Notes: generated by a model from the sequence alone, not told the origin. A stretch of DNA of 64,000 nucleotides from Myxococcota bacterium (GCA_965228475.1 OZ245817.1:3264001-3328000), one strand, 5' to 3'. Shown: positions 40,066 through 61,980, counted from the first letter of the stretch. Translations and numbers: made by a program.

Positions 40066-40078
40066 CGCCGAGCGCGCC

Positions 40079-42252: not shown

Positions 42253-42342
42253 GGCGCGCAGTGTATCGCGCGGGGTAGCGCCGCGCGGCGGCGCGAGACA
42301 ACATCCCGGGGATTCGCTCGGACCAAGGGGGGGTTCTTGGGT

Positions 42343-43203
42343 TTGCAACGACCGTTCTCGTTCCCGATGGCGTTGGCCATGGGCTGGCTGCTGCTCTCGG
42401 GCTGTGCGGCCGGGCCGGCGCCGCGGGCCGCGGACGCTGGCGCCGGCGCCCACGAAGGTCTGAACGCGACCCTCTGGCTGCAAACCGCCGCCGAGTACCG
42501 CGCGAACGTCCTGCAGGCGTTCACGGGGGCGACCGCCCACCTCGACCAGGCCCTCGCGGACCCCACGTGGACCGCGGCGGTCGAGCAGACCGGCGACTTC
42601 GGAGCCCTCCCGCCCGCCATCATCCTCGACATGGACGAGGCGATCATCCGCAGCGACCGCTTCCAGGCCCAGCTCGTGCGCGACGACGCCGCCTTCACCA
42701 TCGAAGACTGGAACGCCTGGGTGCGCACGGAGGTCTCCGAGGCCATGCCCGGCGCGCTCGAGTACGTGCGCCAGGCCAAGGCGCGCGGCATCACGATCTT
42801 CTACGTCACGAACCGGACGGGCACCGTCGAGCGGGAGACCTTCGAGACGCTGCGCAAGCTCGGCTTCCCCGTCGAGGGCGGGCTCGAGGCGCTGCTCACC
42901 CAGGACGAGCGGCCCGAGTGGCCGAGCGACAAGTCCTCGCGGCGCGCCCATCTCGCCCGGACCCACCGCATCCTGCAGATCGTCGGCGACAACCTGAACG
43001 ACTTCGTGAGCGGCGCCCACGTCGCGCCGGCCGCGCGCCGGGAGCTGGCCGAGTCCTACGGCGGGTACTGGGGCACGCGCTGGATCATCACGCCGAACCC
43101 GGCCTACGGCGGCTGGCACGGCGCCCTCTACGATTTCGACTACGGCCTCCCGGCCGACGAGAGACGCGAGCGGCTTCGCCAGCACCTCGAGTCCTGGAAG
43201 TAG
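42343..43203 (+). CDS. Class C acid phosphatase / 5'-nucleotidase lipoprotein (e(P4)-like HAD)
   Basis: LSGC lipobox, WLQTAAEY, LDMDE, YVTNR, GDNLNDF, PNPAYGGW; start uncertain. Confidence 0.88.
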   Translation: MQRPFSFPMALAMGWLLLSGCAAGPAPRAADAGAGAHEGLNATLWLQTAAEYRANVLQAFTGATAHLDQALADPTWTAAVEQTGDFGALPPAIILDMDEAIIRSDRFQAQLVRDDAAFTIEDWNAWVRTEVSEAMPGALEYVRQAKARGITIFYVTNRTGTVERETFETLRKLGFPVEGGLEALLTQDERPEWPSDKSSRRAHLARTHRILQIVGDNLNDFVSGAHVAPAARRELAESYGGYWGTRWIITPNPAYGGWHGALYDFDYGLPADERRERLRQHLESWK

Positions 43204-43890
43204 GTGCCGGTCCGGCCGCGCGTCCGGCACCCGTGGAACGTCTCCTTCCAGGAGGCCCGCGAGATCCAGCAGCGCCTCCGCGGCCGCGTCGAACGCAAGG
43301 ACCGGCTCGGGCCCGTTCGGCGGGTCGCGGGCGTGGACGTCTCCTACGACCGCGGAAGCCCCGTCCTCTACGCCGCCGTCGTCGTGCTCGACGCGCGCAC
43401 CGGCGAACGGCTCGAGACCGCCGGCGTGCGCCAGCGGACGGCCATCCCCTACGTGCCGGGATACCTCTCCTTCCGGGAGCTCCCTCCCCTGCTCGAGGCC
43501 TTCGCGCGGCTCTCCACCCGCCCGGACCTCGTGGTCTGCGACGGCCACGGCCGCGCCCACCCCCGGCGCTTCGGCATCGCCTGCCACCTCGGCGTGGTGC
43601 TCGACCTGCCCGCGATCGGCTGCGGGAAGAGCCGCCTCGTCGGCGAGCACGAAGAACCCGGGGCGGCGCGCGGGAGCCACACGCCCCTGCGCGACGGCCG
43701 CGAGGTGATCGGCAGCGTCGTGCGCACCCGTGAAGGCACGAAGCCCGTGTTCGTCTCGACGGGCCATCGCGTTTCGCTCGTGACGGCGCGACGGCAGGTC
43801 CTGCGCCTCGCGCCGCGGCTCCGCCTGCCCGAGACGACCCGCGCCGCCCACGAGGTCGTGAACGAACTCCGCCGCCGAGGCGAACCGTGA
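43204..43890 (+). CDS. nfi: Endonuclease V
   Basis: AGVDVS, PYVPGYLSFRE, DGHGRAHPRRFGIACHLG, PVFVSTGH, PETTRAAH. Confidence 0.96.
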   Translation: MPVRPRVRHPWNVSFQEAREIQQRLRGRVERKDRLGPVRRVAGVDVSYDRGSPVLYAAVVVLDARTGERLETAGVRQRTAIPYVPGYLSFRELPPLLEAFARLSTRPDLVVCDGHGRAHPRRFGIACHLGVVLDLPAIGCGKSRLVGEHEEPGAARGSHTPLRDGREVIGSVVRTREGTKPVFVSTGHRVSLVTARRQVLRLAPRLRLPETTRAAHEVVNELRRRGEP

Positions 43891-44185: not shown

Positions 44186-44848
44186 CTAGCGCGTGTTGCT
44201 CCGATCGCCGACCTCGCCGCGCAGGGTGGCCGGCGCGCCGAGCGCGACGCGGTGCGGGGGCACGTCCTTCGTCACCACCGAGCGCGCGCCGACGACGGCG
44301 TGGTCGCCGATCGTCACGCCCTTGAGCACCGTGCAATCGCTCGCGACCCATACGTGGTCTCCGATCGTGACCGGCGCCATGCGCTCGGGGGTCTCGGCGT
44401 CGAAGTCGTGCTGGTCCGCGTCGAAGAGCCGGGTGCCGGGGCCGAGCCAGGCCCGATGGCCGAGCGTCACCCGGGATTTGCAGCTCACGTGGGCCCCGTT
44501 CAGGAAGGCCTCGGGCCCGAGGGTGAGCTCCGCACCCTCGAAGACGGCGATCACAACCGGGCCGAGATCCGTGCGCAGCCAGGTCCCCGGCCCGATCGTG
44601 ACCCGGGCACCCGGCTCGAGCAGGAAGCGCAGGGCATCGGGCGTGCGCTCGGTGACGACGCCGGCACCGATCTCGAGCTGCGCACCGGCGCCGAGCTGGA
44701 AGCGCGCAACGGCCAAGGCACTGCTGGCATCGGGATGGATCGAGAGTCCGGGGTGCTGCCGCACGAGCCTCGAGAGCTCGCGGCGGTCGCGGCGGGCGAT
44801 GCGCCGCATGCGGCGGCGCAGCAGCGCCCCGCGCAGGCCCTCGGTCAC
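44186..44848 (-). CDS. Hexapeptide-repeat (LbH) acyltransferase
   Basis: DADQHD, APVTIGDHVWV..VLKGVTIGDHAVVGARSVVTKDVP..GAPA. Confidence 0.88.
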   Translation of the reverse strand: MTEGLRGALLRRRMRRIARRDRRELSRLVRQHPGLSIHPDASSALAVARFQLGAGAQLEIGAGVVTERTPDALRFLLEPGARVTIGPGTWLRTDLGPVVIAVFEGAELTLGPEAFLNGAHVSCKSRVTLGHRAWLGPGTRLFDADQHDFDAETPERMAPVTIGDHVWVASDCTVLKGVTIGDHAVVGARSVVTKDVPPHRVALGAPATLRGEVGDRSNTR

Positions 44849-45084
44849 GAGGGCGGCGGCTGACCCTCGCGCAGCCGGAAGGTGATGAAGCCGTGGGTCG
44901 GGTCGTAGGGCGAGAGCCCGACCTGGACCTTGTCCCCGGGAATCACCCGGATCCGGAAGCGGCGCATGCGTCCCGAGAGCTGGGCCGTCACGGTCTGGCC
45001 GGAGTCGAGCTCGATCTGATATCGGCCGCCTCCGAGAATCTTGTTCACGGTGCCGGTCGTCTGGATCAGGTCGTCTCGGGCCAA
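44845..45084 (-). CDS. infA: Translation initiation factor IF-1
   Basis: AQLSGRMRRFRIRVIPGDKVQVGLSPYDPTHGFITFR; TTG start. Confidence 0.93.
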   Translation of the reverse strand: MARDDLIQTTGTVNKILGGGRYQIELDSGQTVTAQLSGRMRRFRIRVIPGDKVQVGLSPYDPTHGFITFRLREGQPPPS

Positions 45085-45199
45085 GCTAGCGGGTCCTCGT
45101 CTGGGTCATGGCGGGGGAGACTAGCGCCAACCTCGCCGTGAGCCCAGCGTGTCCCTCCGCAGGGAGAGAGACGCGCGGAGGGGCTCCAAAATTCACGAC

Positions 45200-46456
45200 T
45201 CAGCTACAGGATCGGTGCACGTGGACCGTGAGGTCACCGAGCAGGTTCGTGTAGCTCCCGTACTCGTTGTCGTACCAGCCGAAGACCTTCGCGTGGGTCA
45301 CCGGAAGCTGGATCCGCGAGGAGGTCGCCTTGGCCGCCAGCTCCTTGCCGATGCCCGGGATCTGCCCGAGGTCGACGTCGAGGAAGCCCGTCCGGGTGTG
45401 GGTCTCCGCCCCTTCGATCACCACCGCGGCCTTCATGCCCATGACGTCGGCGGCGACGTTCTGCTCGGGCGAGAAGACGAGCAGGCCCTTCTGACTGCCC
45501 TCGGAGGCCTGCTGATAGATCCGGTTCACGAGCTCGCGGTCGATCGAGCTCTCACCGTCGTCTTCGATGGTGCTCTGGAAGGTCAGGTTCAGGATGATCA
45601 GCGACTCGGTCGCGAGCGGCACGCGGACCGCGTCGCCCATGAAGCCGATCTCGCGGATCTCGGGGATCACGACCTCGAGCGCGGCGCTCGCGTTGCTCGA
45701 CGTCAGGATCAGGCTGTTCAGCGCGCTGCGCGTGCGCCGCAGATCCTTGGCGTCGGCCTTCGGTACCGAATCGAGCAGGGTCTGCGAGTTGGTGACCGCG
45801 TGCACCGTGCTCATGCTGGCCGTCACGACCGTCGAATCCGGCAGGTGGTCGAGCAGCGGCTTCACCATGTGCGCGAGGCCGGTCGTCGTACAGGAAGCGG
45901 CCGACAGCACGTGATGCTGGGCCGGATCGAACAGGTCGTGGTTGATGCCGTAGATCAGGGTCGCGGCGTCGTCGGGCATCGCCTTGGTCTTGTCCTTGAT
46001 CTTGAAGGCCGAGCTGTTGATCACCTTCTCGGCGCCCGCGGCGAGGTGGCCGCGCAGGGAGCCGCGCCCGTCGTCGGCCGGACGCGTCGGGTCGCCGAAA
46101 GCGCCGGTCGCATCGACGACGACGCGCGCCCCGTGATCGCGCCACCCGATGTCGGCGGGGTTGCGCGCCTCCTGGAGGAGCTTCACCGGCACGCCGGCGA
46201 CGTCGAGCAGGCCAGCCTCGCGGTCGGCGATGCGGATGCAGGGCTCGGAGTTCACGCCGAACAGGAAGCGGTGCATGCTGCCGTAGGTGCTGTCCTTCTC
46301 GATGAGCTGGCAGACCGCCTCGAGGTCCTGGCCGATCTTGCGGCCGACGTTCACCACGATGCGCGAGAAGTACTTCCGCTCGACGTGGTGCCAGAGCGAG
46401 AGCTTGCCGATCCGGCCGAGGCTGTTGATGCCGAGGGTGCGTTCCGATTCCGTCAT
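45200..46456 (-). CDS. gap: Atypical glyceraldehyde-3-phosphate dehydrogenase-family protein (418 aa)
   Basis: GINSLGRIG, DSTYG, VVDATG, GIN, SAASCTTTGLA, TVHAVT, RVP, WYDNEYGSY. Confidence 0.85.
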   Translation of the reverse strand: MTESERTLGINSLGRIGKLSLWHHVERKYFSRIVVNVGRKIGQDLEAVCQLIEKDSTYGSMHRFLFGVNSEPCIRIADREAGLLDVAGVPVKLLQEARNPADIGWRDHGARVVVDATGAFGDPTRPADDGRGSLRGHLAAGAEKVINSSAFKIKDKTKAMPDDAATLIYGINHDLFDPAQHHVLSAASCTTTGLAHMVKPLLDHLPDSTVVTASMSTVHAVTNSQTLLDSVPKADAKDLRRTRSALNSLILTSSNASAALEVVIPEIREIGFMGDAVRVPLATESLIILNLTFQSTIEDDGESSIDRELVNRIYQQASEGSQKGLLVFSPEQNVAADVMGMKAAVVIEGAETHTRTGFLDVDLGQIPGIGKELAAKATSSRIQLPVTHAKVFGWYDNEYGSYTNLLGDLTVHVHRSCS

Positions 46457-46488
46457 GGTCGTCCAGGTCTCCGCTTCATGGGGTGCGC

Positions 46489-49400
46489 TCAGGCCAGCCG
46501 CTGGCGGCGCACGATCGTGCTGGGATGCTTTCCGAGATAGAGCGAGCCGTCCACCCCGTTGATCGAAATGAAATCCCCGGTCTCGAGGGTCCGTCCGGCC
46601 AGCACCGAACGCCTCCCCCGCTCGTCGACGGAGAGCTCCCGGCAGCCCACCACGCAGGTCTTCCCGAGCCGCAGGGCCGCCACCGCGGCGTGGCTCGTCG
46701 ACCCCCCGAGGGCAGTGACCATGCCGTCGGCCTCGACCATGAGCGGGAGGTCGTCCGGGACCGTATCCGGCCGCAGGAGGATGATGTGGTCGTCCGGGAA
46801 GCGGCGGCGCAGGAGCTCGACGTCCTCGACGTTGTGGGCGACGCGCCCGGAGAGCGCCCCGCCTCCGGCTCCGATGCCCGTGGCGAGCCAGGCCGCCTCG
46901 AGGCCTTCGCTCGGCAGGAAGGCCGGCACCGAGGCCACCTGCGACATCACCGTGTCGCGGCTCTGGAGGATGTAGAGGTCGGCCGGGTCGTCGCCCTCGA
47001 AGGTGAACTCGATCTCCTGATGGAACATGCCCTGCTCGTGCACGAGGGTCCGGGCGTGATGGAGAATCGCCTCGTAGAGCTTCGGGAAGTCCTTCTCGAG
47101 GGAGACGTCCGTGCCGGGCGCCTCGTTCACGCGCTGCTCCTCGCTCACCGGGTAGGTCTCGACGAGCCCGCTCACGACGTCGTCGCCCTGGGCCTGGACG
47201 ATGAAGTCGCCGTGCAGCCGAACGGCCGTGCTCGCCCGGCGCGGATCCGTCGTCATCACCACGCCCGTTCCCGAGCGGGCGTGCAGGTTCCCGTAGACCA
47301 TGCTCTGGATCACGACGGCCGTTCCCCATTCCTCGGCGATCTGGAGCTCGCGCCGATAGACCTGCGCCTTGGCCGAACCCCAGGAATCGAGCACGAGATC
47401 CACGCAGCGCAGGAGCTGCGGCCACGGATCGTCGAGGATCTCGACGCTGCGCGCCCGCAGCAGCTCACGGTAGCGCAGGGCCACGTCGCGCATCTGCGGG
47501 GCGCTGAGCTGCGCCTTCTTCTCCGCGCCGAAGTCCGTCTTGGAGTCGCGCATGAGTGCGTCGAAGTCGTCGCGCTCGAGCCCGTGGCCCATGCCCCAGA
47601 GCTGAAGGAAGCGGCGGTAGGCGTCCCAGGCGCCCCAGTCGCTGCCCGAGCGCGTCGCGAGGCCCGTCGCGATCTCCTCGTTGATGCCGACGTTCAGGAA
47701 GGTGTCGAGCATGCCGGGCATGCTGATGGCGGAGCCCGAGCGCACCGAGAGGAGCAGCGGCCGGTCCGGGTCGCCGAGGACGAGGCCCGTCGACGCTTCC
47801 AGGCGGTCGATCTGGCGCAGCAGCTCGCCCTCGACCTCGCGCCGCAGGTCCGGCCAGGCGCGGATGGCCTTCGAGCAGCGGAAGATCTCGCGCGTGAGGA
47901 TGAAACCCGGCGGCACGGGCAAGCCGTCGCCGGCCAGACGCTTCACCAGGAAGCCCTTGTTCCCGAGGTGGATCGGCCCGTCGAGCGGGTGGTCCTCCGG
48001 TTCGATCGGGACGCAGGCCCGCTCGGGGTCGTAGGACATGAGGAGCTCGAGGGTCTCCTCCGAGAGCGTCTCCCGGACCTGGACGAGGGAGCGCATCATC
48101 CGCCCGAGCAGCATGTCGAGCTGCTGCAGACCGAGACTCGATCCGATCAGATCCCGCAGGAAGGTCTCGGAGGCCTTCATCGCGGCTTCTTCCTGGCTCT
48201 CGCCCGGCTCGCGCGGGAGGATGCCCCGCTCGACGTAGCGGGGGAGCAGCTCGGAGAGGGCGCCCTCGTAGACCTCGAGGTACCGGATCCGCACGAGCTG
48301 CTCGACGCTTCGCGAGAGCACCTGGAAGACGTTCAGGTACTGATCGACGGTGGTGCCTTCGGTCGCGAGGGATTGGTCGAGCATCGAGAGGCCCATCGAG
48401 AGCCCCCTGCCCTTGCAGCCGTCGATCCGCACGGCGCGCAGCATCTGATGGAGCCAGCCGGATACGCGGCGCAGCGCCGCGCTGTGGATGCAGTCCGCCT
48501 GGTGGGAGTCGAGCAGCCGGTCGAAGAGCGTGTTCGCGAGCGAGCCGGCCCGGAAGGTCAGCCCCGCGGCGTCGAACTTCTGCTCGCGATAGCGGCCGTA
48601 GAGGCTCGGAATGCCGACGGCGATGTGGCGCTTGCGGTAGATGTCCTCGACGGCCTCCGTGCGCTCCTCGCGCGTCATGATCTCCTTCAGCGCCTCGAGG
48701 ATGCCGAGCGTCGCATCGAGCGCGTCCTCGACGTCGTCGGTGTCGAGGGCTTCCCGCAGTCGCTGCACCTCGGCGGCGTCGAGCGCGGTGAAAGCCGCGA
48801 GGCGGTCGAGCAGATCGTCGTGGTCGAAGCCGTATTTCTGGACGAGCAGGCGGCGGAGGCGGAAGAGCAGCCCGACCTTCTCCCGCTCCTCGGGGCGCCC
48901 CGCGGTGACGCCGGCGAGGCGCGCTTCGATGGCCTCGGGCTCCTCGTCGAGCAGCTTCGTCCAGGGGGCGCCCGCCACGAGCGCCTCCATGACCGCCCCC
49001 ATGCCCTCGCGCGCGGGGTCGGTCTCGAGCGCCGCGTAGAGCGGGCCGGGCAGGTAGGGCCGCAGCGGCTCGCGCTCCGCCGTCGCCCAGTAGCCGGCCA
49101 CGGCCTCGACGAAGTCGGCGAGCTTCGGGTTCGACTCCACGTGGCACTGTTTGCGGAGGAAGTGGCAGAGCGCGTCGCGCCTCCCCTCGATCTCGTCGAG
49201 CCGGGAGGACACCTGACGCAGGTCGCCCTCGGCGCCGATCTCGTCGTAGTAGACGGGGAAGGTGCGCAGCAGGTGCTTCACCGAGTGGAAGACGGGCTCC
49301 ATGCCGCCGTTCAGGAGCTGGCTGACGTCGCGCTGGAAGAGGTCCGTGTCCGCGATCATCACGCCGCCGACGCGCAGGTGGATCACGAGCGCGGCGACGA

Positions 49401-50637
49401 GCTCGCGCGCCCCGGCCGGGTGGGCCTCGATCGCGGCCAGGTAGCTGCGGATGCCGCGCAGGTGCGCCGGGTTGACCCGGATCTGCCACTCGTCGGAGAA
49501 GCCCGAGAAGTCCGGCGTCGCGAAGTCGCAGAGCAGGAGCTCCTCGATGAAAGCTGCGGCGGTCTCCGGCTCGCCCGCGCGCAGGACCTCGGAGCCGAGC
49601 CGCGCGACGAGCGCCGTCGACGCGTGGGTCTCGAAGACGCCGGCGCCGCGCAGGGCGGCGAACACGTCGCGCACGAAGCGCTCGCCCTCCGCGGGGGACG
49701 CGCCAGCCGCCACCTCGCTGGCCAGGTGCGAGAGTTCCGCGACGGCGGGCTCGTGGAGCGCCGCCAGTCCGTCGTCCGAGAGCAGGTGGACGAGCCACGC
49801 CGTGCGGGCGCCGCGGTCGCCGAGCTGGCCGGCGACGTCGAGGTAGGCCCGGGCGATCTCGCTCTCGTCGGGCAGGGCGCAGAGCGGCTCCGTCGCTTCC
49901 GGCGACTCGGGGGCGAGGGCCGCGAGCGCCTCGCGCTGGCTCCGCAGGGTCGCATGGCCGAGCACGGCCATCGCATCGTTCACCTCGGCCCGGCCCGCGT
50001 CCGACGGGGCGAGCCAGGCGTTCGGGTCCTCGCGCTCGAGCCAGCTCGCGTAGGTCGCATCCAGGGACGCCGCCAAGAGGCCGCGCGCGCGGGCGCCGGC
50101 CGGGCCTCCGTCGCCGAGCGCCCGCACCAATCGCCCGAGGGCCGGCGAGAGCGCCGGAGGCGTCCCAGGGCCCCAGCCCGCGGCCAGCGCCTCGAGCCCG
50201 GTCTCGAGCACGGGCAGCATCGTCTCGAGGTGCGCGCCCGACGCGCTCGCCACCTTCTCGGCGTAGGCGAGCCCCTGGCGGGCCGCGGCCGCGCGCAGCG
50301 TCTGCGGGTGGGCCTCCCGCACGGCCCGTGCGTACAGCGAGAAGACCACGCCGATCGCCTCGGCGGCCCGCAGGTGATCGACGTGATAGGGGAAGTCCGC
50401 CATCGCGCGGCGGTGCAGCTCGGCCAGGGCTTCGGCCCAGCCGACGAACTCGTGGTTGATCTCGTGCAGGAGGCGGCGCGTGTTCTCGTGAATGCCGCGG
50501 AACTCGGCCGTGACCTCGAGCAGGACCTCCTGCTCGGGCGGGATCGTGACGGGCACCGCCGTCCGCGCGAGGTTGACCTCGAGCGCGCTCGGACCCGGCG
50601 CAGCGGGGTCCGCAGGGCTGGCTTCGTCCCGGGCCAT
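46489..50637 (-). CDS. PPDK-related dikinase with large unknown N-terminal region; lacks PEP/pyruvate-binding barrel
   Basis: LGNKG..LPVPPGFILT, LLLSVRSGSAISMPGMLDT, QSMVYGN..SGTGV, QGDDVVSG, QEIEFT, GGSTSHAAV; stops about 65 aa after the His. Confidence 0.85.
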   Translation of the reverse strand: MARDEASPADPAAPGPSALEVNLARTAVPVTIPPEQEVLLEVTAEFRGIHENTRRLLHEINHEFVGWAEALAELHRRAMADFPYHVDHLRAAEAIGVVFSLYARAVREAHPQTLRAAAARQGLAYAEKVASASGAHLETMLPVLETGLEALAAGWGPGTPPALSPALGRLVRALGDGGPAGARARGLLAASLDATYASWLEREDPNAWLAPSDAGRAEVNDAMAVLGHATLRSQREALAALAPESPEATEPLCALPDESEIARAYLDVAGQLGDRGARTAWLVHLLSDDGLAALHEPAVAELSHLASEVAAGASPAEGERFVRDVFAALRGAGVFETHASTALVARLGSEVLRAGEPETAAAFIEELLLCDFATPDFSGFSDEWQIRVNPAHLRGIRSYLAAIEAHPAGARELVAALVIHLRVGGVMIADTDLFQRDVSQLLNGGMEPVFHSVKHLLRTFPVYYDEIGAEGDLRQVSSRLDEIEGRRDALCHFLRKQCHVESNPKLADFVEAVAGYWATAEREPLRPYLPGPLYAALETDPAREGMGAVMEALVAGAPWTKLLDEEPEAIEARLAGVTAGRPEEREKVGLLFRLRRLLVQKYGFDHDDLLDRLAAFTALDAAEVQRLREALDTDDVEDALDATLGILEALKEIMTREERTEAVEDIYRKRHIAVGIPSLYGRYREQKFDAAGLTFRAGSLANTLFDRLLDSHQADCIHSAALRRVSGWLHQMLRAVRIDGCKGRGLSMGLSMLDQSLATEGTTVDQYLNVFQVLSRSVEQLVRIRYLEVYEGALSELLPRYVERGILPREPGESQEEAAMKASETFLRDLIGSSLGLQQLDMLLGRMMRSLVQVRETLSEETLELLMSYDPERACVPIEPEDHPLDGPIHLGNKGFLVKRLAGDGLPVPPGFILTREIFRCSKAIRAWPDLRREVEGELLRQIDRLEASTGLVLGDPDRPLLLSVRSGSAISMPGMLDTFLNVGINEEIATGLATRSGSDWGAWDAYRRFLQLWGMGHGLERDDFDALMRDSKTDFGAEKKAQLSAPQMRDVALRYRELLRARSVEILDDPWPQLLRCVDLVLDSWGSAKAQVYRRELQIAEEWGTAVVIQSMVYGNLHARSGTGVVMTTDPRRASTAVRLHGDFIVQAQGDDVVSGLVETYPVSEEQRVNEAPGTDVSLEKDFPKLYEAILHHARTLVHEQGMFHQEIEFTFEGDDPADLYILQSRDTVMSQVASVPAFLPSEGLEAAWLATGIGAGGGALSGRVAHNVEDVELLRRRFPDDHIILLRPDTVPDDLPLMVEADGMVTALGGSTSHAAVAALRLGKTCVVGCRELSVDERGRRSVLAGRTLETGDFISINGVDGSLYLGKHPSTIVRRQRLA

Positions 50638-50678
50638 CGGGCCTCCCAAAGGTGCCGGCCCAAGGTACCGAAAGGCCC

Positions 50679-52853
50679 CTACTTTCGGGCGGACAGCCCC
50701 TGGATGCGGCGCTTGCGCAGGCGGGTCGCATCGCGGTGGCGTCGCTCCGCCCACTCGACCTGCGCCTCGTGGCTCGCGCGGCCCTTGCGCCCCTTCGCTT
50801 CGCCGCTGCGCTGGACGTAGCTGCCGTCCGGTCGCATGTCCCAGGCGCTGCGCTGGTCCCCGAGCTGGGTATCGAGGACGTGGCGCAGCTCGGCCTGGAG
50901 TTCGGGCTTCTCGACCGGAGCCAGCACCTCGACCCGGCTCTCGAGGTTGCGCTTCATGGCGTCCGCCGAGCCGATGTAGTACTCGGGCTCCCCGCCGTTC
51001 GCGAAGTAGTAGATCCGGGCGTGTTCGAGGAAGCGGCCGACGACGCTGATCACCCGGGCGCTCTCGGAGAGCCCCTCGATCCCCGGCCGCAGGCGGCAGG
51101 TATCCCGGACGATCAGATCGACCTTCACCCCGGCCTGGGACGCCCGGTAGAGCGCCTGGGTCACGTCCGCATCCTCGAGCGCGTTCATCTTCATCTGGAT
51201 GTGGCCGTTCTGCGTGCTCGACTGATGCCGGATCTCGCGCTCGATCTTCCCGAGGATGGCCGGCTTCAACACCGTCGGCGCCGGCAGCAGCTTCCGGTAC
51301 GTGCGGCGCGGCTTGTACCCGGTCGTCAGGTAGTTGAAGAGCTCGGTCGCGTCCTGACCGATCTCTTCGTCGGCGGTGAGCAGGCCGTGGTCCGAGTAGA
51401 TGCGCGACGTCTGGGCGTTGTAGTTCCCCGTCCCGATGTGGCAGTAGCGGCGCAGGCCGTCGTAGTCCTGCCGGACCACGAGGATGACCTTGCAGTGCGT
51501 CTTCAAGCCGACGACGCCGTAGGTGACGTGGATCCCGCGCTCCTCGAGGCGGTTCGCGAAACGGATGTTCGCGTCCTCGTCGAAGCGCGCCTTCAGCTCG
51601 ACCACCACCGCGACCTGCTTGCCGTTGCGCGCGGCGCGGATGAGGTGCTCGACGATGCCCGAGTCGTCCGAGGTGCGATAGATCGTCATCTTGATCGCGC
51701 GCACCTTCGGGTCGTCGGCCGCTTCACGCAGGAAGCGCTCGACGGAGGCGCCGAAGGATTCGTAGGGGTGGTGGAGCAGGATCGAGCCCTCGTCCCGCAC
51801 CACGTGGAAGACGTTCCGGTCCGTCACGAGGGCCGGCGGGGCGACCGGCGCGTGCTTCGGGTCGCGCAGCTCCGGGATCGGCAGGAAGGCGAGTTCCATC
51901 AGATCGGCCATGCCGAGCATGCCGTCCACGTCCTGGACGTCGGAGACCTCGTCGAGGCCGAGCTCCGCCGCGAGCATGCCGCGGTGGAGCGCCGCCATGC
52001 CCTTCTCCACCTGCAGCCGGACGATCGGCGCGAACTGGCGCGCGCGCAGCTCGGTCTCGATCAGCGCCATCAGGTCTTCCGCGCCCTCTTCGTCCTGCTC
52101 GGTGTTCGCGTTCCGCGTCACCCGGAAGAGCTCGCAGCCGTCGATCTCCATGCCGGGGAAGAGCAGGTCGAGGTTCGCGGCCATCACCTCCTCGAGCGGG
52201 ACGAAGCGGTGGCCGACGCCGACCTGCAGGAACCGCGGGACGCCCTTGCCGACGGGCACCTTGACCCGGGCCAGCATGGACGCCGGATCCTTCGGGTGAT
52301 GGAGCGTGACGAGGAGGTTCAGCGAGAGGTTCGAGATGAACGGAAACGGATGCGCCGGGTCCATCGCCTGGGGCGTGACCAGCGGGAAGATGCTCGAGAA
52401 GTAGAGCTCGCGAACGGCCTCCCGCTCGCGCTCGCCGAGATCCGCATGATGCACCAGCTCGACGCCGTTCTCCGCCAGCAGGCCGAGCACCGTCGAGAGC
52501 TCCTTGCGCTTGCGGGCTTCGATGTCGCGGACGATCTCCTCGCACTCGACGATCTGCTCTTCCGGCGTGCGTCCGTCGACGGTGCGCGTTCCGATGCCGG
52601 CACCCACCTGCTGCTTCAGACCGCCGATGCGCTTCTGGAAGAACTCGTCGAGGTTCGAAGAGACGATGGCGATGAACTTGAGCCGGTCGAGCAGCGGCGT
52701 CCGCTCGTCTTCCGCCTCGGCCAGGACGCGGCGATTGAAGGCCAGCCACGTGAACTCACGGTTCAGGTAGAGCTCGGGCGCCCGCAGGTCCCGGCCGGGC
52801 TCCTGGGCCGAGAGGGCCTCCGCCTCGAGCTGTTCGCGCATCTCTTTCTTCAT
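50679..52853 (-). CDS. ppk1: Polyphosphate kinase 1
   Basis: NREFTWLAFNRRV, NLDEFF, HPFPFISN, HHPYESF, ELKARFDE, KTHCK, GRFLEH. Confidence 0.97.
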   Translation of the reverse strand: MKKEMREQLEAEALSAQEPGRDLRAPELYLNREFTWLAFNRRVLAEAEDERTPLLDRLKFIAIVSSNLDEFFQKRIGGLKQQVGAGIGTRTVDGRTPEEQIVECEEIVRDIEARKRKELSTVLGLLAENGVELVHHADLGEREREAVRELYFSSIFPLVTPQAMDPAHPFPFISNLSLNLLVTLHHPKDPASMLARVKVPVGKGVPRFLQVGVGHRFVPLEEVMAANLDLLFPGMEIDGCELFRVTRNANTEQDEEGAEDLMALIETELRARQFAPIVRLQVEKGMAALHRGMLAAELGLDEVSDVQDVDGMLGMADLMELAFLPIPELRDPKHAPVAPPALVTDRNVFHVVRDEGSILLHHPYESFGASVERFLREAADDPKVRAIKMTIYRTSDDSGIVEHLIRAARNGKQVAVVVELKARFDEDANIRFANRLEERGIHVTYGVVGLKTHCKVILVVRQDYDGLRRYCHIGTGNYNAQTSRIYSDHGLLTADEEIGQDATELFNYLTTGYKPRRTYRKLLPAPTVLKPAILGKIEREIRHQSSTQNGHIQMKMNALEDADVTQALYRASQAGVKVDLIVRDTCRLRPGIEGLSESARVISVVGRFLEHARIYYFANGGEPEYYIGSADAMKRNLESRVEVLAPVEKPELQAELRHVLDTQLGDQRSAWDMRPDGSYVQRSGEAKGRKGRASHEAQVEWAERRHRDATRLRKRRIQGLSARK

Positions 52854-52869
52854 GCCTTCTCCTGCCACC

Positions 52870-54339
52870 TCAAAGCGCCCGTTCGAGCTGCTTCGCCAGC
52901 GTCTTCACGATCTCGACGCGTGCGTACCGCTTGTCGTTTCCGGGGATGATCGTCCAGGGCGCGGCGCTCGTGCTCGTGCGCTCGATCATGTCGTGCACGG
53001 CCCGGGCGTATTCGTCCCACCGCTCCCGGTTGCGCCAGTCCTCGTCCGTGAGCTTCCACGCCTTGTGCGGAATCATCTTCCGCTCCTCGAAGCGGCGGAG
53101 CTGCTCGTCGGCGTCGATGTGGACCCAGAACTTCGCCAGGACGATCCCCCGATCGACGAGCTGGCGCTCGAAGAGGTTGATCTCCTTGTAGGCGCGCTCC
53201 CATTCTTCTTCGGAAGCGAAGCCTTCCACGCGCTCGACCAGGACCCGCCCGTACCAGGAACGGTCGAACAGGGCGACCTCGCCGGCCCCCGGCACGTGGC
53301 GCCAGAAGCGCCACAGGTAGTGGTGCGCGCGCTCCTCGTCGGTCGGAGCCGCGAAGGGGTAGACCCGGACGGAGGACACGTCGAGGGCCCGCACGACGCG
53401 CCGGATCGCCCCGCCCTTCCCCGCCGCGTCCCAGCCCTCGAACACCCCGAGCATCGCGGTGCCCTTCTTCTGGGCCGCGCGGTGGGCCTGGTTGAGCCGT
53501 GCCTGGGCCTTCTTGAGCTGGCTCTTGTACTCGCCGCTCTCGAGCTTCTTCGAAACGTCGACGGCGTCGAGCACCGTGACGCTGTTCGAGGTCGAGACCG
53601 CCTCGATCTTCTTCTCGGCGCGCTCCGCCGGTTTGGCCGCCAGGCGCTCCCGGATGGACGCGAGCAACAGCTCTCCGACCCGGAGGCTGCGGTAGCGCTC
53701 GTTCTCGCCTTCGACGATGTGCCAGGGCGCGCGCCCCGTGCTCGTGCGCGAGATGATCGTCTCGGCGGTCGCGATGAACGAGTCGTACCGCTTCCAGTGG
53801 TCCCAATCCTTCTTCGTCACCCGCCAGCGCTGGAGCGGATCCTTCTCGAGCTTCTTGAAGCGCCGCTTCTGGGCGTCGCGAGAGAGATGCATCCAGAACT
53901 TCAGGATCAGCGTCCCGTCGTTGGCGAGCATGCGCTCGAAGGCCTCGATCTCGTCGAGGGCGCGTTCGAGATCGGCGTCCTTGCCGCCCTTCGCATGGTC
54001 GAGAAGCGGGCGCGAGTACCAGGCCGAAAGCAGGATGCCGATCTGCCCCCGCGGCGGCAGCGCACGCCAGAAGCGCCAGAAGCGCGGGCGTTCGCGCGAC
54101 GCCTGCATCGGCGCCTTGAAGGCGCGCGTCATGATCCAGCGCGGGTCCATCCACTCGTTGAGGAGCTGCGCCGTCTCGCTCTTGCCCCCGCCGTCGACGC
54201 CGCCGAAGAGGATGATGACGGGGAAGTTCGCGCTCTTGAGTTCCTGCTGGACCATCAGCAGCGCCGTGCGGAGCTTCTCCTCCCGTTCGCGGTACTCGTC
54301 CTTGCCGACCCTGCGGCCCAGCTCCGCCGTCTCGAACAC
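52870..54339 (-). CDS. pap: Two-domain PPK2, polyphosphate:AMP phosphotransferase (class II)
   Basis: GGAGG SD then GTG; FETAELG start; two PPK2 domains (GVDGGGKS; EGWDAAGKGG, DRSWY). Confidence 0.92.
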   Translation of the reverse strand: MFETAELGRRVGKDEYREREEKLRTALLMVQQELKSANFPVIILFGGVDGGGKSETAQLLNEWMDPRWIMTRAFKAPMQASRERPRFWRFWRALPPRGQIGILLSAWYSRPLLDHAKGGKDADLERALDEIEAFERMLANDGTLILKFWMHLSRDAQKRRFKKLEKDPLQRWRVTKKDWDHWKRYDSFIATAETIISRTSTGRAPWHIVEGENERYRSLRVGELLLASIRERLAAKPAERAEKKIEAVSTSNSVTVLDAVDVSKKLESGEYKSQLKKAQARLNQAHRAAQKKGTAMLGVFEGWDAAGKGGAIRRVVRALDVSSVRVYPFAAPTDEERAHHYLWRFWRHVPGAGEVALFDRSWYGRVLVERVEGFASEEEWERAYKEINLFERQLVDRGIVLAKFWVHIDADEQLRRFEERKMIPHKAWKLTDEDWRNRERWDEYARAVHDMIERTSTSAAPWTIIPGNDKRYARVEIVKTLAKQLERAL

Positions 54340-54489
54340 GTCGCCTCCCTGGCACGGGGGCAGAGGCCCCCGCACGAACGGTATCGTCGAAGCGGCGCTT
54401 CGGCTTGCCTCGGAATCGCCCCAACGGCCCGGCTCCGGGGCCCGCACTGTGCGCTCGCGCGCGGTCCGGGACAGAATGCCTCGTGGCCG

Positions 54490-55971
54490 CTAACGGATCC
54501 CTCGCTCGCGCAGGGCCTCCTGGATCTCGAGAACGCGCCCGCGATCGAGGTCGTAGCGGCGGAAGTAGACGAGGGACGCGGTCACGAGCACGGCGAGCGA
54601 GAGCGCGCTCGCGAGGCCGAGATCGTGCACGACGTCGATGTGGACCTCGGCCGGGTCCGTGCCCGGCACGAGGCCGACGACGTCGAGGATCACGCCCGCG
54701 ATCTGCGCGCCCAACCCGAAGACGAGCTTCGCGGCGAAGGAAGACGCGCCGAAGAAGACCCCCTCCCGGCGCCGGCCGAAGCGGAGCGCATCTTCTTCCG
54801 CGACGTCGGCCATCATCGACTGCCCCGTCACCATCGCCGAAGCCAGGAAGAAGTGCGCGATGCCCCCCGTCACGACCACCCAGAGCGCGATGCTCGCCGG
54901 CCCCCCGAGCTCGGGCCAGAACCCGGCGATCACCAGCAGGTAGGGAATGACGACGAAGACCACATAGCCCGTCATGCCCGAGATGAAGACGGGCTTCTTG
55001 TCCGTCCGGGCCGCGCGGCGCGTCCAGTAGACCAGCCCGGAGAAGATGCCGACTCCCGTCGCGACGCCCCACACCACCATCTGGTCCGTCGACGCCTTCC
55101 AGAAGTACGTCCCGGTGTGGAGGCCGAGCGTCACCGCCACGCCCCAGGCGGTGAAGAGCAAGGCCGTGCCGAAGAAGAGCGCGCGGAAGGAGGCGAGCGT
55201 GAGCGCCTCGCGCGTGTCCGTCCAGACCGAGCGCCACACGCTCTGGGTCTGCACGACCGGCTCGCGCAGGTAGGGCACCCGGTCGCGCGTCTTCCACGCC
55301 GTCCCGAAGACGAGCACCACCATGGCGACGCTGCACAGGAGTGCGTAGGTCGGGTAGGCGGCGGGGTCGAAGCGCCCGTCCGGGAAGGCCTCGCTCGGGC
55401 GCATCAGTACGAGGAAGGCGAAGCCTGGGAAGATCGCCGCGCTGCGCGCGAAGGCGTGGCGCAGGGTCACGAGCAGCGTGCGCTCTTCGTAGTCGTCGGT
55501 CAGCTCGGCGCCGAGGGAGAGGTGCGGCACGTGGAAGAGCGTCACGGAGCCACGGCAGAGCACCGTGAAGGTCAAGAGCCAGGCGAACAGGCCGTAGTCC
55601 CCGAGCCCCTCCGGCGGCGAGAAGGCCAGGTAGAACGTCAGACCGAGCGGGATCGCCGAGGCGAACAGGTAGGGGTGCCGCCGGCCGAGCCGCGAGCGCG
55701 TGCGGTCCGAGAGCACCCCGACCAGCGGGTCCGTGACGGCGTCGAAGACCAGGGAGATCAGGATGGCGAGGCCCGCGAGCGAGCCCGGCATCCCGAGGAC
55801 CTGGTTGTAGTAGAAGAGCAGGAACGTCGCGAAGGACTCGTTCTTGATGCCCTCGGCCATCTGGCCGCTCGCGTACCAGAGGCGCGTGGCCCGGGAGAGC
55901 GGCGGCGCGGCGGGCACCGCGCCGGGAGCGGGCGCTGTCGTGGCTTCGGCGGGGGTCACGGGCCCGGGCAT
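54490..55971 (-). CDS. MFS transporter, GPH (glycoside-pentoside-hexuronide) family
   Basis: DAVTDPLVGVLSDRTRSRLGRRHPY, ELTDDYEERT, SMMADV..RREGVF. Confidence 0.9.
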   Translation of the reverse strand: MPGPVTPAEATTAPAPGAVPAAPPLSRATRLWYASGQMAEGIKNESFATFLLFYYNQVLGMPGSLAGLAILISLVFDAVTDPLVGVLSDRTRSRLGRRHPYLFASAIPLGLTFYLAFSPPEGLGDYGLFAWLLTFTVLCRGSVTLFHVPHLSLGAELTDDYEERTLLVTLRHAFARSAAIFPGFAFLVLMRPSEAFPDGRFDPAAYPTYALLCSVAMVVLVFGTAWKTRDRVPYLREPVVQTQSVWRSVWTDTREALTLASFRALFFGTALLFTAWGVAVTLGLHTGTYFWKASTDQMVVWGVATGVGIFSGLVYWTRRAARTDKKPVFISGMTGYVVFVVIPYLLVIAGFWPELGGPASIALWVVVTGGIAHFFLASAMVTGQSMMADVAEEDALRFGRRREGVFFGASSFAAKLVFGLGAQIAGVILDVVGLVPGTDPAEVHIDVVHDLGLASALSLAVLVTASLVYFRRYDLDRGRVLEIQEALRERGIR

Positions 55972-56030: not shown

Positions 56031-56122
56031 GGAGGGGTGGCGGAGTCCGGTTGAACGTGCCTGACTCGAAATCAGGTGAGGGGGCAACTCCTCCGTGGGT
56101 TCGAATCCCACCCCCTCCGCCA
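56031..56122 (+). tRNA. tRNA-Ser (anticodon CGA)
   Basis: Acceptor GGAGGGG/CCCCTCC, anticodon arm CCTGA-CTCGAAA-TCAGG, long variable arm, GGTTCGAATCC, G-CCA end; TGCTAAATT extended -10 upstream. Confidence 0.96.
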
Positions 56123-56270: not shown

Positions 56271-57881
56271 ATGAGTTCGGCTGAGCCGTTCGATCCAGAT
56301 TCATTGTTGTCCCTGCTCGACGGGCTCTATCCCCGTTTCATGGGCCAGATCGACCGCGACCCGGATTCGCCCACCTACGGCTCCTGTGACCGCGGCTTCT
56401 GGATGTACCGCCTGCACGACTTCGATTCGGGCGTGGTTCAGCAGGCCAGCCTTGCGCTCGCCGCGCTGCATGCCCTGGCAGAGCACACGGACTTCGCCGG
56501 CTGCCGCTACCTCGATCGGAAGCAGGCGCCGTACTGGAAGGAACTGGCAGAGGCCGTCAACCGCAGGAACGTTGCGGTGATGGACAAGCGGGGACTGCTC
56601 GACGAGTACTACCCGGGCGAGCGCTCGTTCCCTGCCAGCGTGTTCGCGAGCTACGCGACGCTGAAATCCGCCGCGATGCTCGGACAGCAGACGATCGTCG
56701 AACACGGCCGACTCGACGCCACCGCCCGGGACTTCGCCCAACGCGAGCCGTCGCCGGCGGGGAACCAGGATTCCGCGGCAGCGGCCTTCCTGGCCCTGCG
56801 CGTGGCCCTCGGGCGGGATCCGAGCGGTGAAGCGCAAGCGGCTGCACGGCGCCTGGTGGAGCGCAAGCGCTTTGCCGGCCGCTTCCTCGAGTACGGGGGT
56901 GCGGACCTCGGCTACCTGACCGTGACCCTGAACTATCTCGGCTACCTCCATGCCGACGGCGGCATCGACGTCTCGGGCCCGCTTGTCGAGACCGCCCGAT
57001 TCATCGCCGACTTCATCACGCCGTCTGGACACCTGGGCGGCGAGTACGCGTCGCGCAGCACGACCTATGCCCTCCCCTTCGGAGTCCTGGCCGCGGCGCG
57101 GTGCGATCCTGCATTGGCCGCCCGACTCGCGCCCCTCGACGTGGCGGACGTATTCGCGCGCTTCGACGACCGCTATCTCATGCACTACAGCCTGGCATCC
57201 CTGGCGATGACGGTGCTCGACCTCCATCGGCAGGGCCGGCCGGAGGTGGCCCCCACCGAGACATCAGGCGAATGGTCCATCCGCAACGACGAAGCCGTGG
57301 GACTCCTGCTCGCGCGGCGCGGGCGTTCCTTCCTCGCCGCGGCGCCGCACAAGGGCGGCTCGCTCCAGGTCGACGGACCCGAGGGCGTCGTCGTCGATTG
57401 CGGCTACCGGATCGAACGCGACGGAGCGACCTACGCGACCTGCGTCTTGGACGACGGTGCCGAGACCCGCTTCGAGGAGCAACCCGGCGCCATCGAGCTA
57501 TCCGTGGACGCGCGCTTTCTCCGATACAAGGAGTTGGTCGCAAGCCCGTTGAAGACCATCGTGCTCCGCCTTCTGGGTCTACTCGGTCCGTGGCTCAACG
57601 CCTACTTCAAGCGCGTCCTCATCCAGGACGCCCAGGTTCTGGACGGCGTCCGGCTACGACGGAAGGTGCGGCTCGACCTCGAGCGAGGCGAGTTGACGGT
57701 GGCGGACGACGTCGAGGGAATGTCGGCGGGCGACCGGCTGTCGATCGCGCCCGCGGCCAGCCTCCGCCTGGTACCCAGCGCGAAGTTTCACCAGGCCGGC
57801 GAGGCCGAAGCCCATGTTGCGCGCGGGGAATCCGGCGCACCCTCCATGCCGCGGCGTCGGCGCTTCCGACTGCCCGCCTAG
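56271..57881 (+). CDS. Hypothetical protein of glycan cluster (possible alpha-toroid + beta-sandwich glycan-modifying enzyme)
   Basis: GAGGA SD; DRDPDSPTYGSCDRGFW, EYGGADLGY, GGEYASRST conserved-looking blocks. Confidence 0.65.
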   Translation: MSSAEPFDPDSLLSLLDGLYPRFMGQIDRDPDSPTYGSCDRGFWMYRLHDFDSGVVQQASLALAALHALAEHTDFAGCRYLDRKQAPYWKELAEAVNRRNVAVMDKRGLLDEYYPGERSFPASVFASYATLKSAAMLGQQTIVEHGRLDATARDFAQREPSPAGNQDSAAAAFLALRVALGRDPSGEAQAAARRLVERKRFAGRFLEYGGADLGYLTVTLNYLGYLHADGGIDVSGPLVETARFIADFITPSGHLGGEYASRSTTYALPFGVLAAARCDPALAARLAPLDVADVFARFDDRYLMHYSLASLAMTVLDLHRQGRPEVAPTETSGEWSIRNDEAVGLLLARRGRSFLAAAPHKGGSLQVDGPEGVVVDCGYRIERDGATYATCVLDDGAETRFEEQPGAIELSVDARFLRYKELVASPLKTIVLRLLGLLGPWLNAYFKRVLIQDAQVLDGVRLRRKVRLDLERGELTVADDVEGMSAGDRLSIAPAASLRLVPSAKFHQAGEAEAHVARGESGAPSMPRRRRFRLPA

Positions 57882-58004
57882 CCCGCTTGCGCAATCCATG
57901 CGCAGCGGCGGTGCGGCGCGCGTTCGCGATCGAGTGCACCTTGCACCGAGAGCGTTTGCGATAGAGTGTGCGCCGGCTCGCAAGGGCCTGTGCAGAGGTG
58001 GAGC

Positions 58005-59420
58005 ATGAAGCAGACGCAGCAAACGCCCGCGTCGTCCTACTGGAGTCGTTTTCTCTCCGAGGTCATCGAGCCTGGCAATTGCATGCACTGCGGTGCGTGC
58101 GTCGGCCTCAACCCGCAGCTCCTGGAGTTCACGGAGACCGAACGCGGCCCGCTCCCGCGCCCGAAGCGGCCCCTCTCGCAGGAGGAGGATCGGTCACTGC
58201 GATTGGCGTGGGCCGTATGCTCCGGACGCGGCGCGCCCTACCCCGAGCTGTTCGAGTTCATGGGCAGCCCGGCCCAAGACCTCATGCTCGGCCCTTACCG
58301 CAAGGTCTACACCGGCTTCGCCGCAGACGAAGCGATCCGGCGACGGGGCGCTTCCGGCGGTGTGATCAGCCGAACCCTGATTCACCTGCTCGAGAACGGT
58401 CACGTCGATGGCGCGGTGATCCTCCGCCAGGGACGCTTCCGCCCTGACGAGGCCGCCCCGCTGATCGCCACGACTCCGGAGGAGGTATTGGCGTCCGCCC
58501 AGAGTGTCTACGCGGTGACGCCGATGCTGACGGCGCTTCCCGAGATGGAGACCTTCCAGGGCCGGCTCGCCTTCGTGGGCCTGCCGGAGCAGGTCTCGGT
58601 GCTGCGCATGCTTCAAGCGGCCGGCCATCCCGCGGCGACCAAGGTCGAGTTCGTTGCCGGGCCCTACACCGGTACGAACATGTACGCCGGCGCGGTGCGC
58701 GCCTTCCTCCGCGGCCATGGCGTCCGTGACGACGTCGCCATCACCTCGCTGCAGTGGCGGGCGGGGGAGTGGCCCGGCTACCTGCGCGTGGAGACCGAGG
58801 ATGGGCGAGTCTTCAAGGCCGAGAAGTTCTACTACAACTATTTGATTCCCTTCTACGTCTCGCGCCACTGCCAGATCATCCCCGACTTCGCCAACGAACT
58901 GACGGATCTCTCCATCGGCGATGCCTGGTCGCCGAAGTTCGAGAGCATGGGCGGTGGCCACTCGGTGGTCGTGGCACGAACTACCTTCTGCCAGGAGCTG
59001 ATGGAGAAGATGCGCGCCCAGGGCGAGCTCGAGCTCGACGACGTACCGGTCGACCAGGCACTCGCCATGCACGGCCACATGATCGACTTCAAGAAGCGAG
59101 GCTCCTTCCTCCGACTCGACGGCCAGCGCCGTCGGGGCCTGCCGGTCCCGGACAACGGCTACCGGCCCGTCGGCATCCCCTTCTCCCGCCGCTTCGTGGA
59201 GAGCATCATCAGCTCCTTCTTTTGGATTGGCCGCCAGCGCTGGGCGCGCTGGCTGATCTCGGCGCTGCCGCTCTCTCTCGTCGGCCCCACCTTCGACTTC
59301 ATGCGCAAGAGCTGGAAGGGCATCTCGAAGCCCACCAAGCGCAAGGGGCTGGCCGAGGCCAGTTTCCGCACGTGGGACAACCCCGAGCGGTGGAAGGAGA
59401 TCGCGCGGGTCGACCCGTGA
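58005..59420 (+). CDS. FrhB/FdhB-family (F420 dehydrogenase beta-like) Fe-S flavoprotein
   Basis: [45 protein letters not shown]. Confidence 0.85.
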
Positions 59421-60883: not shown

Positions 60884-61004
60884 GCAGCCCTTCACCCTTG
60901 GGAATCCGCTTCCGAGGCGCCCTTGGGTTGACGCCACCCCCCTGGGGATGAGAGACTCGCCCGGTCCACGTCTGCTGTAGAAGCCGCGAAGGAGATCCTC
61001 CAAC

Positions 61005-61961: not shown

Positions 61962-61980
61962 TCGCGCCTCACCTGCGCCC

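What the first reader, a model, noticed from the sequence alone, without database searches (positions are those of the whole stretch)
45200..55971. Polyphosphate-linked module: PAP + PPK1 + barrel-less dikinase + atypical GAPDH (+ GPH transporter)
Seen: four co-oriented genes with gaps of only 16, 41 and 32 bp, preceded 150 bp upstream by a GPH-family sugar transporter. Established: PPDK-superfamily dikinases release AMP; class II PPK2 (PAP) converts AMP to ADP with polyP; PPK1 interconverts ADP/ATP and polyP. Inference: the two kinases form an AMP-to-ATP recycling loop for the dikinase, which phosphorylates an unknown acceptor that feeds or regulates the divergent GAPDH. This would be a polyP-powered carbon/energy pathway that I do not recognise as characterised.
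Basis: partly seen in the sequence, partly recalled or inferred. Interest (0 to 1): 0.8.

Follow-up and report, generated by a model that had tools for sequence, protein, structure and literature searches.

The report
Barrel-less dikinase with its own GAPDH
The five genes are real, but they are two separate units sitting side by side: ordinary polyphosphate kinases, and a widely conserved, uncharacterised pair (a giant dikinase with a helical domain of no matched fold plus a special glyceraldehyde-3-phosphate dehydrogenase) that most likely adds an AMP/pyrophosphate-linked bypass of the phosphoglycerate kinase step.

Summary
Genes, orientation and gaps (150/16/41/32 bp) are exactly as described, and contigs bridge the ppk1-dikinase junction. 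The polyphosphate module fails its own test: 0 of 92 other dikinase loci carry ppk1, pap or the transporter; in a same-genus genome ppk1 and the dikinase have other neighbours; ppk1 is in 6 of 10 genomes with the pair versus 92 of 141 without. The block fills the tRNA-Ser/infA gap, which is short in 14 of 28 relatives: an accretion site. What is conserved is the dikinase plus a distinct GAPDH clade (79 of 92 loci). The dikinase keeps PPDK's ATP-grasp and phospho-His residues; an 885-residue helical domain with invariant basic and acidic residues and no fold match replaces the pyruvate barrel. The GAPDH keeps its catalytic set and has an NADP-type loop. Best guess (0.45): a reversible 3-phosphoglycerate/1,3-bisphosphoglycerate dikinase coupled to that GAPDH; main rival, a VadK-like regulatory kinase. 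The scan noted this pair six times before on other DNA; I found no paper on it in nine searches.

The parts
46489..50637 (-). Barrel-less PPDK-like dikinase, 1382 aa (core of the conserved unit)
47983..50637 (-). N-terminal ~885-aa nearly all-helical region; conserved core ~340-850 with invariant H392, D430, R474, D481, R495, Q497, H499, S502, K601, Y602, K669, R670, H671, S678, R696, R828, D841 (58 of 58); inferred acceptor site
   Evidence: no fold match
46948..47967 (-). ATP-grasp (PPDK-type) domain, residues ~891-1230; K894, R966, E1210, Q1225, R1227 in 58 of 58, E1208 in 57 of 58
46525..46890 (-). Swivelling phospho-histidine domain, residues ~1250-1371; H1316 (codon 46690-46692) in 58 of 58, T1314 in 57 of 58
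45200..46456 (-). Divergent GAPDH (GAP'), 418 aa; C189, H219, T222, R240, R278, N397 in 66 of 66; Asp32 position replaced by N-x-G-R (G and R 66 of 66; Asp in 10 of 10 canonical GAPDHs)
50679..52853 (-). Polyphosphate kinase 1; ordinary; neighbour, not a conserved part of the pair
52870..54339 (-). Two-domain PPK2, polyphosphate:AMP phosphotransferase; forms its own pap-ppk1 pair in some relatives, without the dikinase
54490..55971 (-). GPH-like MFS transporter, one of at least 7 paralogues in the genome; absent from 92 dikinase loci
56031..56122 (+). tRNA-Ser(CGA), divergent; one boundary of the accreted block
44845..45093 (-). infA (IF-1); other boundary; sits next to tRNA-Ser(CGA) in 14 of 28 other relatives

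Best explanation
Two unrelated units lie side by side in the tRNA-Ser/infA gap (about 0.85 for this part). pap and ppk1 are housekeeping polyphosphate enzymes. The conserved unit is the dikinase plus GAP'. Shown by sequence: an intact PPDK-type ATP-grasp site and swivelling His; a helical domain with an invariant cluster of Arg/Lys/His/Asp in place of the pyruvate barrel; a GAPDH with its full thioester and phosphate-site residues and no Asp32. Inferred: ATP plus Pi phosphorylates H1316 with release of AMP and PPi; the His domain swings to the helical domain and phosphorylates the carboxylate of 3-phosphoglycerate; the labile 1,3-bisphosphoglycerate is reduced at once by GAP' with NADPH to glyceraldehyde 3-phosphate. 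This is a second, more strongly driven gluconeogenic route beside PGK/GAPDH, which are kept; run backwards it would make ATP from AMP and PPi in glycolysis. PAP and PPK1 could recycle that AMP here, but as general housekeeping.
For: GAP' adjacent in 79 of 92 loci, 62 co-directional and 17 convergent, so the link survives rearrangement; all 10 GAP'-bearing genomes of 151 in the order have the dikinase next to it. Two more loci have a canonical gap divergent from the dikinase instead (L048, L055). The other recurring neighbours are pgk (7 loci) and tpi (9), including gap-dikinase-GAP'-pgk-tpi-secG (L049, L057), and Wood-Ljungdahl acs genes (9 loci in the clustering, 11 by the looser search; families). 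Catalytic residues of both proteins are invariant. The nucleotide half is PPDK-like rather than PEP-synthase-like (TIGR01828 342 bits, TIGR01418 57 bits). The genome keeps canonical gap, pgk and a full PPDK and has an H+-pyrophosphatase while family I PPase was not found, which fits PPi-conserving metabolism. Precedent for an all-helical acceptor domain: glucan water dikinase (PMC13553574, passages).
Against: No substrate is shown; the acceptor is inferred from gene context only. 7 of 92 loci with >=1 kb downstream have no GAPDH of either kind nearby, and G191 (96% complete) has the dikinase and only a canonical GAPDH. PGK is retained, so the step would be redundant. Loss of Asp32 is a hint, not proof, of NADP use; NADPH-using plastid GapA keeps Asp32 (PMC3728087, passages). 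A hemerythrin-like domain on 48 of 120 close homologues fits a regulatory protein as well. The loci are the best 80 of 758+ metagenome hits and are related to each other (38 distinct at 70% identity among 58).
Confidence: 0.45

Rival explanations
1. Regulatory kinase: like mycobacterial VadK, the barrel-less dikinase autophosphorylates and controls a partner enzyme, here GAP'; the helical region is a docking and sensing scaffold.
For: VadK is a PPDK-derived, barrel-less, autophosphorylating regulator (PMC13400623, abstract and passages). N-terminal hemerythrin-like domain with conserved His/Glu in 48 of 120 homologues. Residues 1-340 are helical repeats.
Against: VadK has no replacement domain, whereas this family has a 500-residue core with 17 or more invariant polar residues, typical of an active site. 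The partner can be a canonical GAPDH (L048, L055). A dedicated GAPDH clade that keeps full catalytic residues beside a canonical copy is easier to explain as a pathway step.
Confidence: 0.2
2. Same chemistry, other acid: the pair activates and reduces a different carboxylic acid (for example 4-phosphoerythronate or glycerate) through an acyl phosphate, as aspartokinase/Asd or ArgB/ArgC do (recalled analogy).
For: GAP' is only about 30% identical to the genome's canonical GAPDH, forms its own clade and differs at the S-loop (T-[NG]-[ST]-Q against T-N-D-Q).
Against: All G3P phosphate-site residues are kept; no pathway gene for another acid recurs in 90 loci, while pgk, tpi and gap do.
Confidence: 0.15
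3. One reading: a dedicated polyphosphate-powered module in which PAP and PPK1 recycle the dikinase's AMP and the transporter supplies the substrate.
For: Gaps of 16, 41 and 32 bp, no terminator-like site between the genes; chemistry is compatible; ppk1 lies near the same tRNA in the congener, so some proximity may predate this species.
Against: 0 of 92 loci. pap-ppk1 adjacent in 6 of 29 other pap loci, none followed by the dikinase in the stretches read (two of them run to a contig end or have ppk1 divergent). ppk1 6 of 10 against 92 of 141; pap 5 of 10 against 44 of 141, Fisher p 0.29, kin not independent. Adenylate kinase is present. The block fills a variable intergenic site.
Confidence: 0.07
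4. A pyruvate dikinase in which an unrelated helical domain binds pyruvate/PEP, as the database names suggest.
For: Sources name members 'pyruvate, orthophosphate dikinase'; the nucleotide half is PPDK-like.
Against: The names follow the shared half; no barrel family match; the genome has a full PPDK; recurring neighbours are gap, pgk and tpi.
Confidence: 0.08

Closest known systems
Pyruvate, phosphate dikinase (PPDK, EC 2.7.9.1; TIGR01828; PDB 1kbl, 5jvj)
   Same: ATP-grasp and His domains, 35% identical to the genome's own PPDK over 513 columns, with matching catalytic motifs
   Different: No pyruvate/PEP barrel; 885-residue helical N-terminal region; below the family cut-off (342 < 843); tied to a GAPDH
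VadK (Rv1127c; PMC13400623; PRK05878-type barrel-less PPDK)
   Same: PPDK-derived, lacks the pyruvate domain, keeps the catalytic His
   Different: VadK is only the two shared domains; this protein adds a large conserved domain; NF004531 score 290 < 456
Glucan water dikinase (PMC13553574) and rifampin phosphotransferase
   Same: Swivelling-His dikinases whose acceptor domain was exchanged; the GWD central domain is all-helical
   Different: Domain order here is acceptor, ATP-grasp, His; the nucleotide domain is PPDK-type; no sequence or fold match to these was returned
Type I GAPDH, NADP-using gluconeogenic forms such as Bacillus GapB (recalled)
   Same: Cys/His catalysis, phosphate sites, loss of Asp32
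   Different: Own clade with insertions, 418 aa, below TIGR01534 and PRK07729 cut-offs
PPK1 (TIGR03705) and polyphosphate:AMP phosphotransferase (TIGR03708)
   Same: Both pass their curated cut-offs
   Different: Nothing unusual found

Membership tests
PPDK (EC 2.7.9.1) | N-terminal-type ATP-grasp domain with nucleotide-site Lys, Arg, Glu, Gln, Arg | tested here: met
   K894, R966, E1210, Q1225, R1227 in 58 of 58; aligned to own PPDK; roles recalled
PPDK (EC 2.7.9.1) | Swivelling domain with phospho-His in GGxTSHAA | tested here: met
   H1316 58 of 58; PF00391
PPDK (EC 2.7.9.1) | C-terminal pyruvate/PEP-binding barrel | tested here: not met
   Protein ends 11 residues after the His domain; PDB PPDK matches stop at chain residue ~510; no barrel family hit
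PPDK (EC 2.7.9.1) | Pi-dependent, AMP- and PPi-forming turnover | not testable with these tools
   Needs an assay
VadK-type regulatory kinase | Only ATP-grasp plus His domain, no acceptor domain | tested here: not met
   885-residue conserved extra region
VadK-type regulatory kinase | Acts on or binds a metabolic enzyme | not testable with these tools
   Needs a binding or phosphotransfer assay
Glucan water dikinase | Helical central domain homologous to StGWD1 | tested here: inconclusive
   Not listed in fold searches; whether entries 9HA9/9QVI are in the libraries was not established
Type I phosphorylating GAPDH | Catalytic Cys and His, Pi and Ps site residues | tested here: met
   66 of 66 for C189, H219, T222, R240, R278, N397; T252 65 of 66
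Type I phosphorylating GAPDH | TIGR01534 curated cut-off | tested here: not met
   272.6 < 367.2
Type I phosphorylating GAPDH | G3P oxidation and cofactor preference | not testable with these tools
   Only the N-x-G-R signature
Polyphosphate:AMP phosphotransferase (class II PPK2) | Two PPK2 domains; TIGR03708 cut-off | tested here: met
   678 > 547.65; two PF03976 stretches
PPK1 | Four PPK1 domains; TIGR03705 cut-off | tested here: met
   756 > 465.85
   0 of 92 loci; congener broken

The most novel reading that the evidence does not exclude
The pair is an undescribed enzyme step in central carbon metabolism: a 3-phosphoglycerate, phosphate dikinase with a new acceptor fold that hands 1,3-bisphosphoglycerate to a dedicated NADP-type GAPDH, giving anaerobes and acetyl-CoA-pathway bacteria an AMP/PPi-linked alternative to phosphoglycerate kinase; in this organism its AMP may additionally be recharged from polyphosphate by co-transcribed kinases.
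Probability: 0.4. Interest if true: 0.85.

Novelty: new variant of a known kind. Interest (0 to 1): 0.6.

Why it matters
If the pair does what its context suggests, lower glycolysis/gluconeogenesis has an unrecognised step, now filed under the wrong name (PPDK) in Desulfotignum, Desulfobacterium, Thermodesulfobacterium, Bacteroidales, Cloacimonadota, Acidobacteriota and Myxococcota records. Metabolic models of these anaerobes would be mis-wired and their ATP budgets wrong. It would be a dikinase acting on a carboxylate of a glycolytic intermediate, with a large domain that matched no solved fold here, and a cultured thermophile carries a member, so it can be tested directly. The polyphosphate link, the reason the finding was flagged, adds little.

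Tried and rejected
Fold searches of the N-terminal region: residues 20-886 (pLDDT 84) and 340-880 (pLDDT 90.5) gave only generic helical-bundle matches (best Z 10.2-10.8 over ~95-135 residues; Foldseek best E 1e-3 with TM 0.11, and 0.02); the part holding most invariant residues (about 380-600) was barely covered by any row, and it was not folded alone, so this is no proof of a new fold. Pfam, PDB sequence profile and the protein atlas (best 0.84, unnamed clusters) gave nothing usable. Complex prediction of the core with GAP': no answer, controls not folded; used neither for nor against. No RNA holder listed, so co-transcription is untested. Promoter/terminator scan at chance level; repeats are chance-like and give no att site; GC and GC3 of the block match the host. 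Plasmid search empty. GAP' not found in 113 genomes of G191's class (no positive control in that set). A second barrel-less dikinase in the genome (L107) shows no likeness to the core. Distance matrices of the two proteins correlate (Spearman 0.66), which shared ancestry alone would give; not counted. Paper searches with no relevant result: 0 papers; one rice proteomics paper, listing only, not read; listings only, unrelated by title. Paywalled papers and all supplements were not seen and could hold a description of this family.

Full report
Observation. The five ORFs lie on the minus strand at 55971-54490 (GPH-like MFS), 54339-52870 (PAP), 52853-50679 (PPK1), 50637-46489 (dikinase) and 46456-45200 (GAPDH-like), with gaps of 150, 16, 41 and 32 bp. 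PAP and PPK1 pass their curated cut-offs; the dikinase and the GAPDH do not. Contigs of two runs cross the ppk1-dikinase junction without a difference; they may be the source sample. The genome (96% complete, one contig) also has canonical gap and pgk side by side, a full PPDK, adenylate kinase and an H+-pyrophosphatase; family I pyrophosphatase was not found.

Test of the polyphosphate link. I gathered 92 other dikinase loci: 8 from the genome scan, 79 from the metagenome scan, which kept the best 80 of 758+ relatives, and 5 from relatives (three further fetched loci were left out as duplicates). None has a match to PPK1, PAP or the transporter; 73 have at least 1 kb and 54 at least 4 kb upstream. 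In the same-genus genome G301 the order dikinase-GAP'-infA-acetyltransferase is kept, but other genes lie upstream of the dikinase, and the 80% identical ppk1 is on another contig followed by other genes. Among 151 genomes of the order (searches show the same family tallies and are taken as one set), GAP' is in 10, ppk1 in 98 and PAP in 49. ppk1 is in 6 of the 10 and 92 of the other 141 (the four without are 68-90% complete); PAP is in 5 of 10 and 44 of 141 (Fisher p 0.29, kin not independent). pap and ppk1 are adjacent in 6 of the 29 best other pap loci, and no dikinase was seen in the wider stretches read for them.

Why they are neighbours here. A tRNA-Ser(CGA) gene lies 60 bp beyond the transporter, pointing away, and infA follows GAP'. 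In 14 of 28 other relatives' infA loci (30 best of 58 matches fetched, own genome and G301 set aside) the same tRNA is divergent from infA within 1.5 kb, 13 of them within about 400 bp. G203 and G303, which carry the dikinase pair elsewhere, keep tRNA and infA together. In G301 the tRNA is followed by a glycosyltransferase, a methyltransferase and two unassigned genes, then ppk1. The 10.8-kb block is therefore what has gathered in a variable gap. Against this: ppk1 near the tRNA in G301 means some proximity may be genus-old, and a 48% identical transporter lies 4.4 kb from ppk1 in G203, so transporter and ppk genes may have travelled together; neither involves the dikinase.

The conserved unit. 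GAP' is next to the dikinase in 79 of 92 loci, 62 co-directional and 17 convergent; 2 have only a canonical gap, divergent; 7 with room have neither; 4 are cut short. All 10 GAP' genomes of the order have the dikinase beside it. pgk occurs in 7 loci and tpi in 9, for example gap-dikinase-GAP'-pgk-tpi-secG; acetyl-CoA synthase genes precede it in 9-11. Named members come from Acidobacteriota, Desulfotignum, Desulfobacterium, Bacteroidales, Cloacimonadota and Thermodesulfobacterium geofontis (10 proteins looked up); the profile of the N-terminal region finds 243 representatives at E <= 1e-30. In the window's own phylum it is sparse, 4 clear matches in 301 genomes.

Anatomy. Residues 891-1371 match PPDK's ATP-grasp and His domains and nothing matches its barrel. 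K894, R966, E1210, Q1225, R1227 and H1316 are invariant in 58 sequences and align with the genome's PPDK; their roles are recalled from PPDK work. No fold search gave more than generic bundle matches. GAP' is one side of a starred branch against 10 canonical GAPDHs in a fast tree (33 of the GAP' rows used). It keeps the catalytic Cys and His and the phosphate-site residues in 66 of 66, and has N-x-G-R where 10 of 10 canonical neighbours have N-D. Asp32 contacts the 2'-hydroxyl of NAD, but NADPH-using plastid enzymes keep it (PMC3728087, passages), so NADP use is likely, not shown.

Mechanism. Shown: intact phospho-His machinery, an exchanged acceptor domain, a catalytically complete GAPDH, tight linkage to it and looser linkage to pgk, tpi and gap. 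Inferred: ATP + Pi + 3-phosphoglycerate to 1,3-bisphosphoglycerate + AMP + PPi, with GAP' reducing the labile product by NADPH. Spending two phosphoanhydride equivalents would pull a step that is unfavourable through PGK (textbook reasoning, no numbers computed); the reverse would conserve PPi in glycolysis, which suits the loci with a canonical gap. I give this 0.45. Rivals: VadK-like regulation 0.20, another acid 0.15, pyruvate 0.08, the dedicated polyP module 0.07.

Known systems. Barrel-less PPDK derivatives exist: VadK (PMC13400623; abstract and passages) and dikinases with exchanged acceptor domains such as glucan water dikinase, whose central domain is all-helical (PMC13553574; passages). 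The protein works like these but fails PPDK membership on the barrel and VadK membership on the extra domain. Nine paper searches found no description of this pair; paywalled papers and supplements were not seen. The scan's own notes list the pair six times in other genomes with a similar reading; my reading was recorded before seeing them, and a search for a polyphosphate link in those notes was empty. They are not independent evidence.

Verdict. Observation confirmed; interpretation partly supported. The polyphosphate module is a local juxtaposition; the dikinase-GAP' pair is a real, uncharacterised variant of the swivelling-His dikinases. Interest 0.6.

Noticed in passing
P0009, P0121 and others (homologues, residues ~1-150): 48 of the 120 closest homologues carry an N-terminal extension; those scanned match hemerythrin (PF01814), with H24, H57, E61, H88, H127, E131 in 41-45 of 48. 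The window's protein lacks it and no free copy was found in the genome. Possible oxygen or metal sensing on the dikinase.
   Followed up: partly
L107:5186-8233 (-), G000:C1 ~1,391-1,394 kb: A second barrel-less dikinase, 1015 aa, with another order (unassigned N-terminal part with a possible signal-like stretch, SHxxL His motif, C-terminal PEP-synthase-type ATP-grasp), reminiscent of glucan water dikinases; unrelated to the core studied here.
   Followed up: partly
window 56031-56122 and 44845-45093: tRNA-Ser(CGA) and infA-hexapeptide acetyltransferase form a conserved divergent pair in the order; the gap collects different genes in different genomes.
   Followed up: yes
window 44186-44848: Hexapeptide-repeat acetyltransferase follows infA in 27 of 29 relatives' loci fetched; an odd, stable partner for IF-1.
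   Followed up: no
window 56271-63264 (+): Polysaccharide-type cluster with lower GC3 (0.84-0.90): an unassigned 536-aa protein, an FrhB-like protein, a flippase, a GT2 and a membrane protein.
   Followed up: no
L104:4103-5504 (G301:C176): The only two-domain PAP match in the congener is 50-52% identical and split over two frames, so it is probably not the orthologue of the window's pap.
   Followed up: partly
L049, L057 (downstream): The gap-dikinase-GAP'-pgk-tpi-secG run is followed by genes that look like sat and aprBA by their sequence starts (recalled, not scanned), i.e. sulfate reducers, where AMP and PPi are major fluxes.
   Followed up: no
window 38938-43890: Secreted beta-helix-like protein, amidohydrolase, formyltransferase, HAD IIIB phosphatase and endonuclease V; mostly syntenic with L001.
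   Followed up: no
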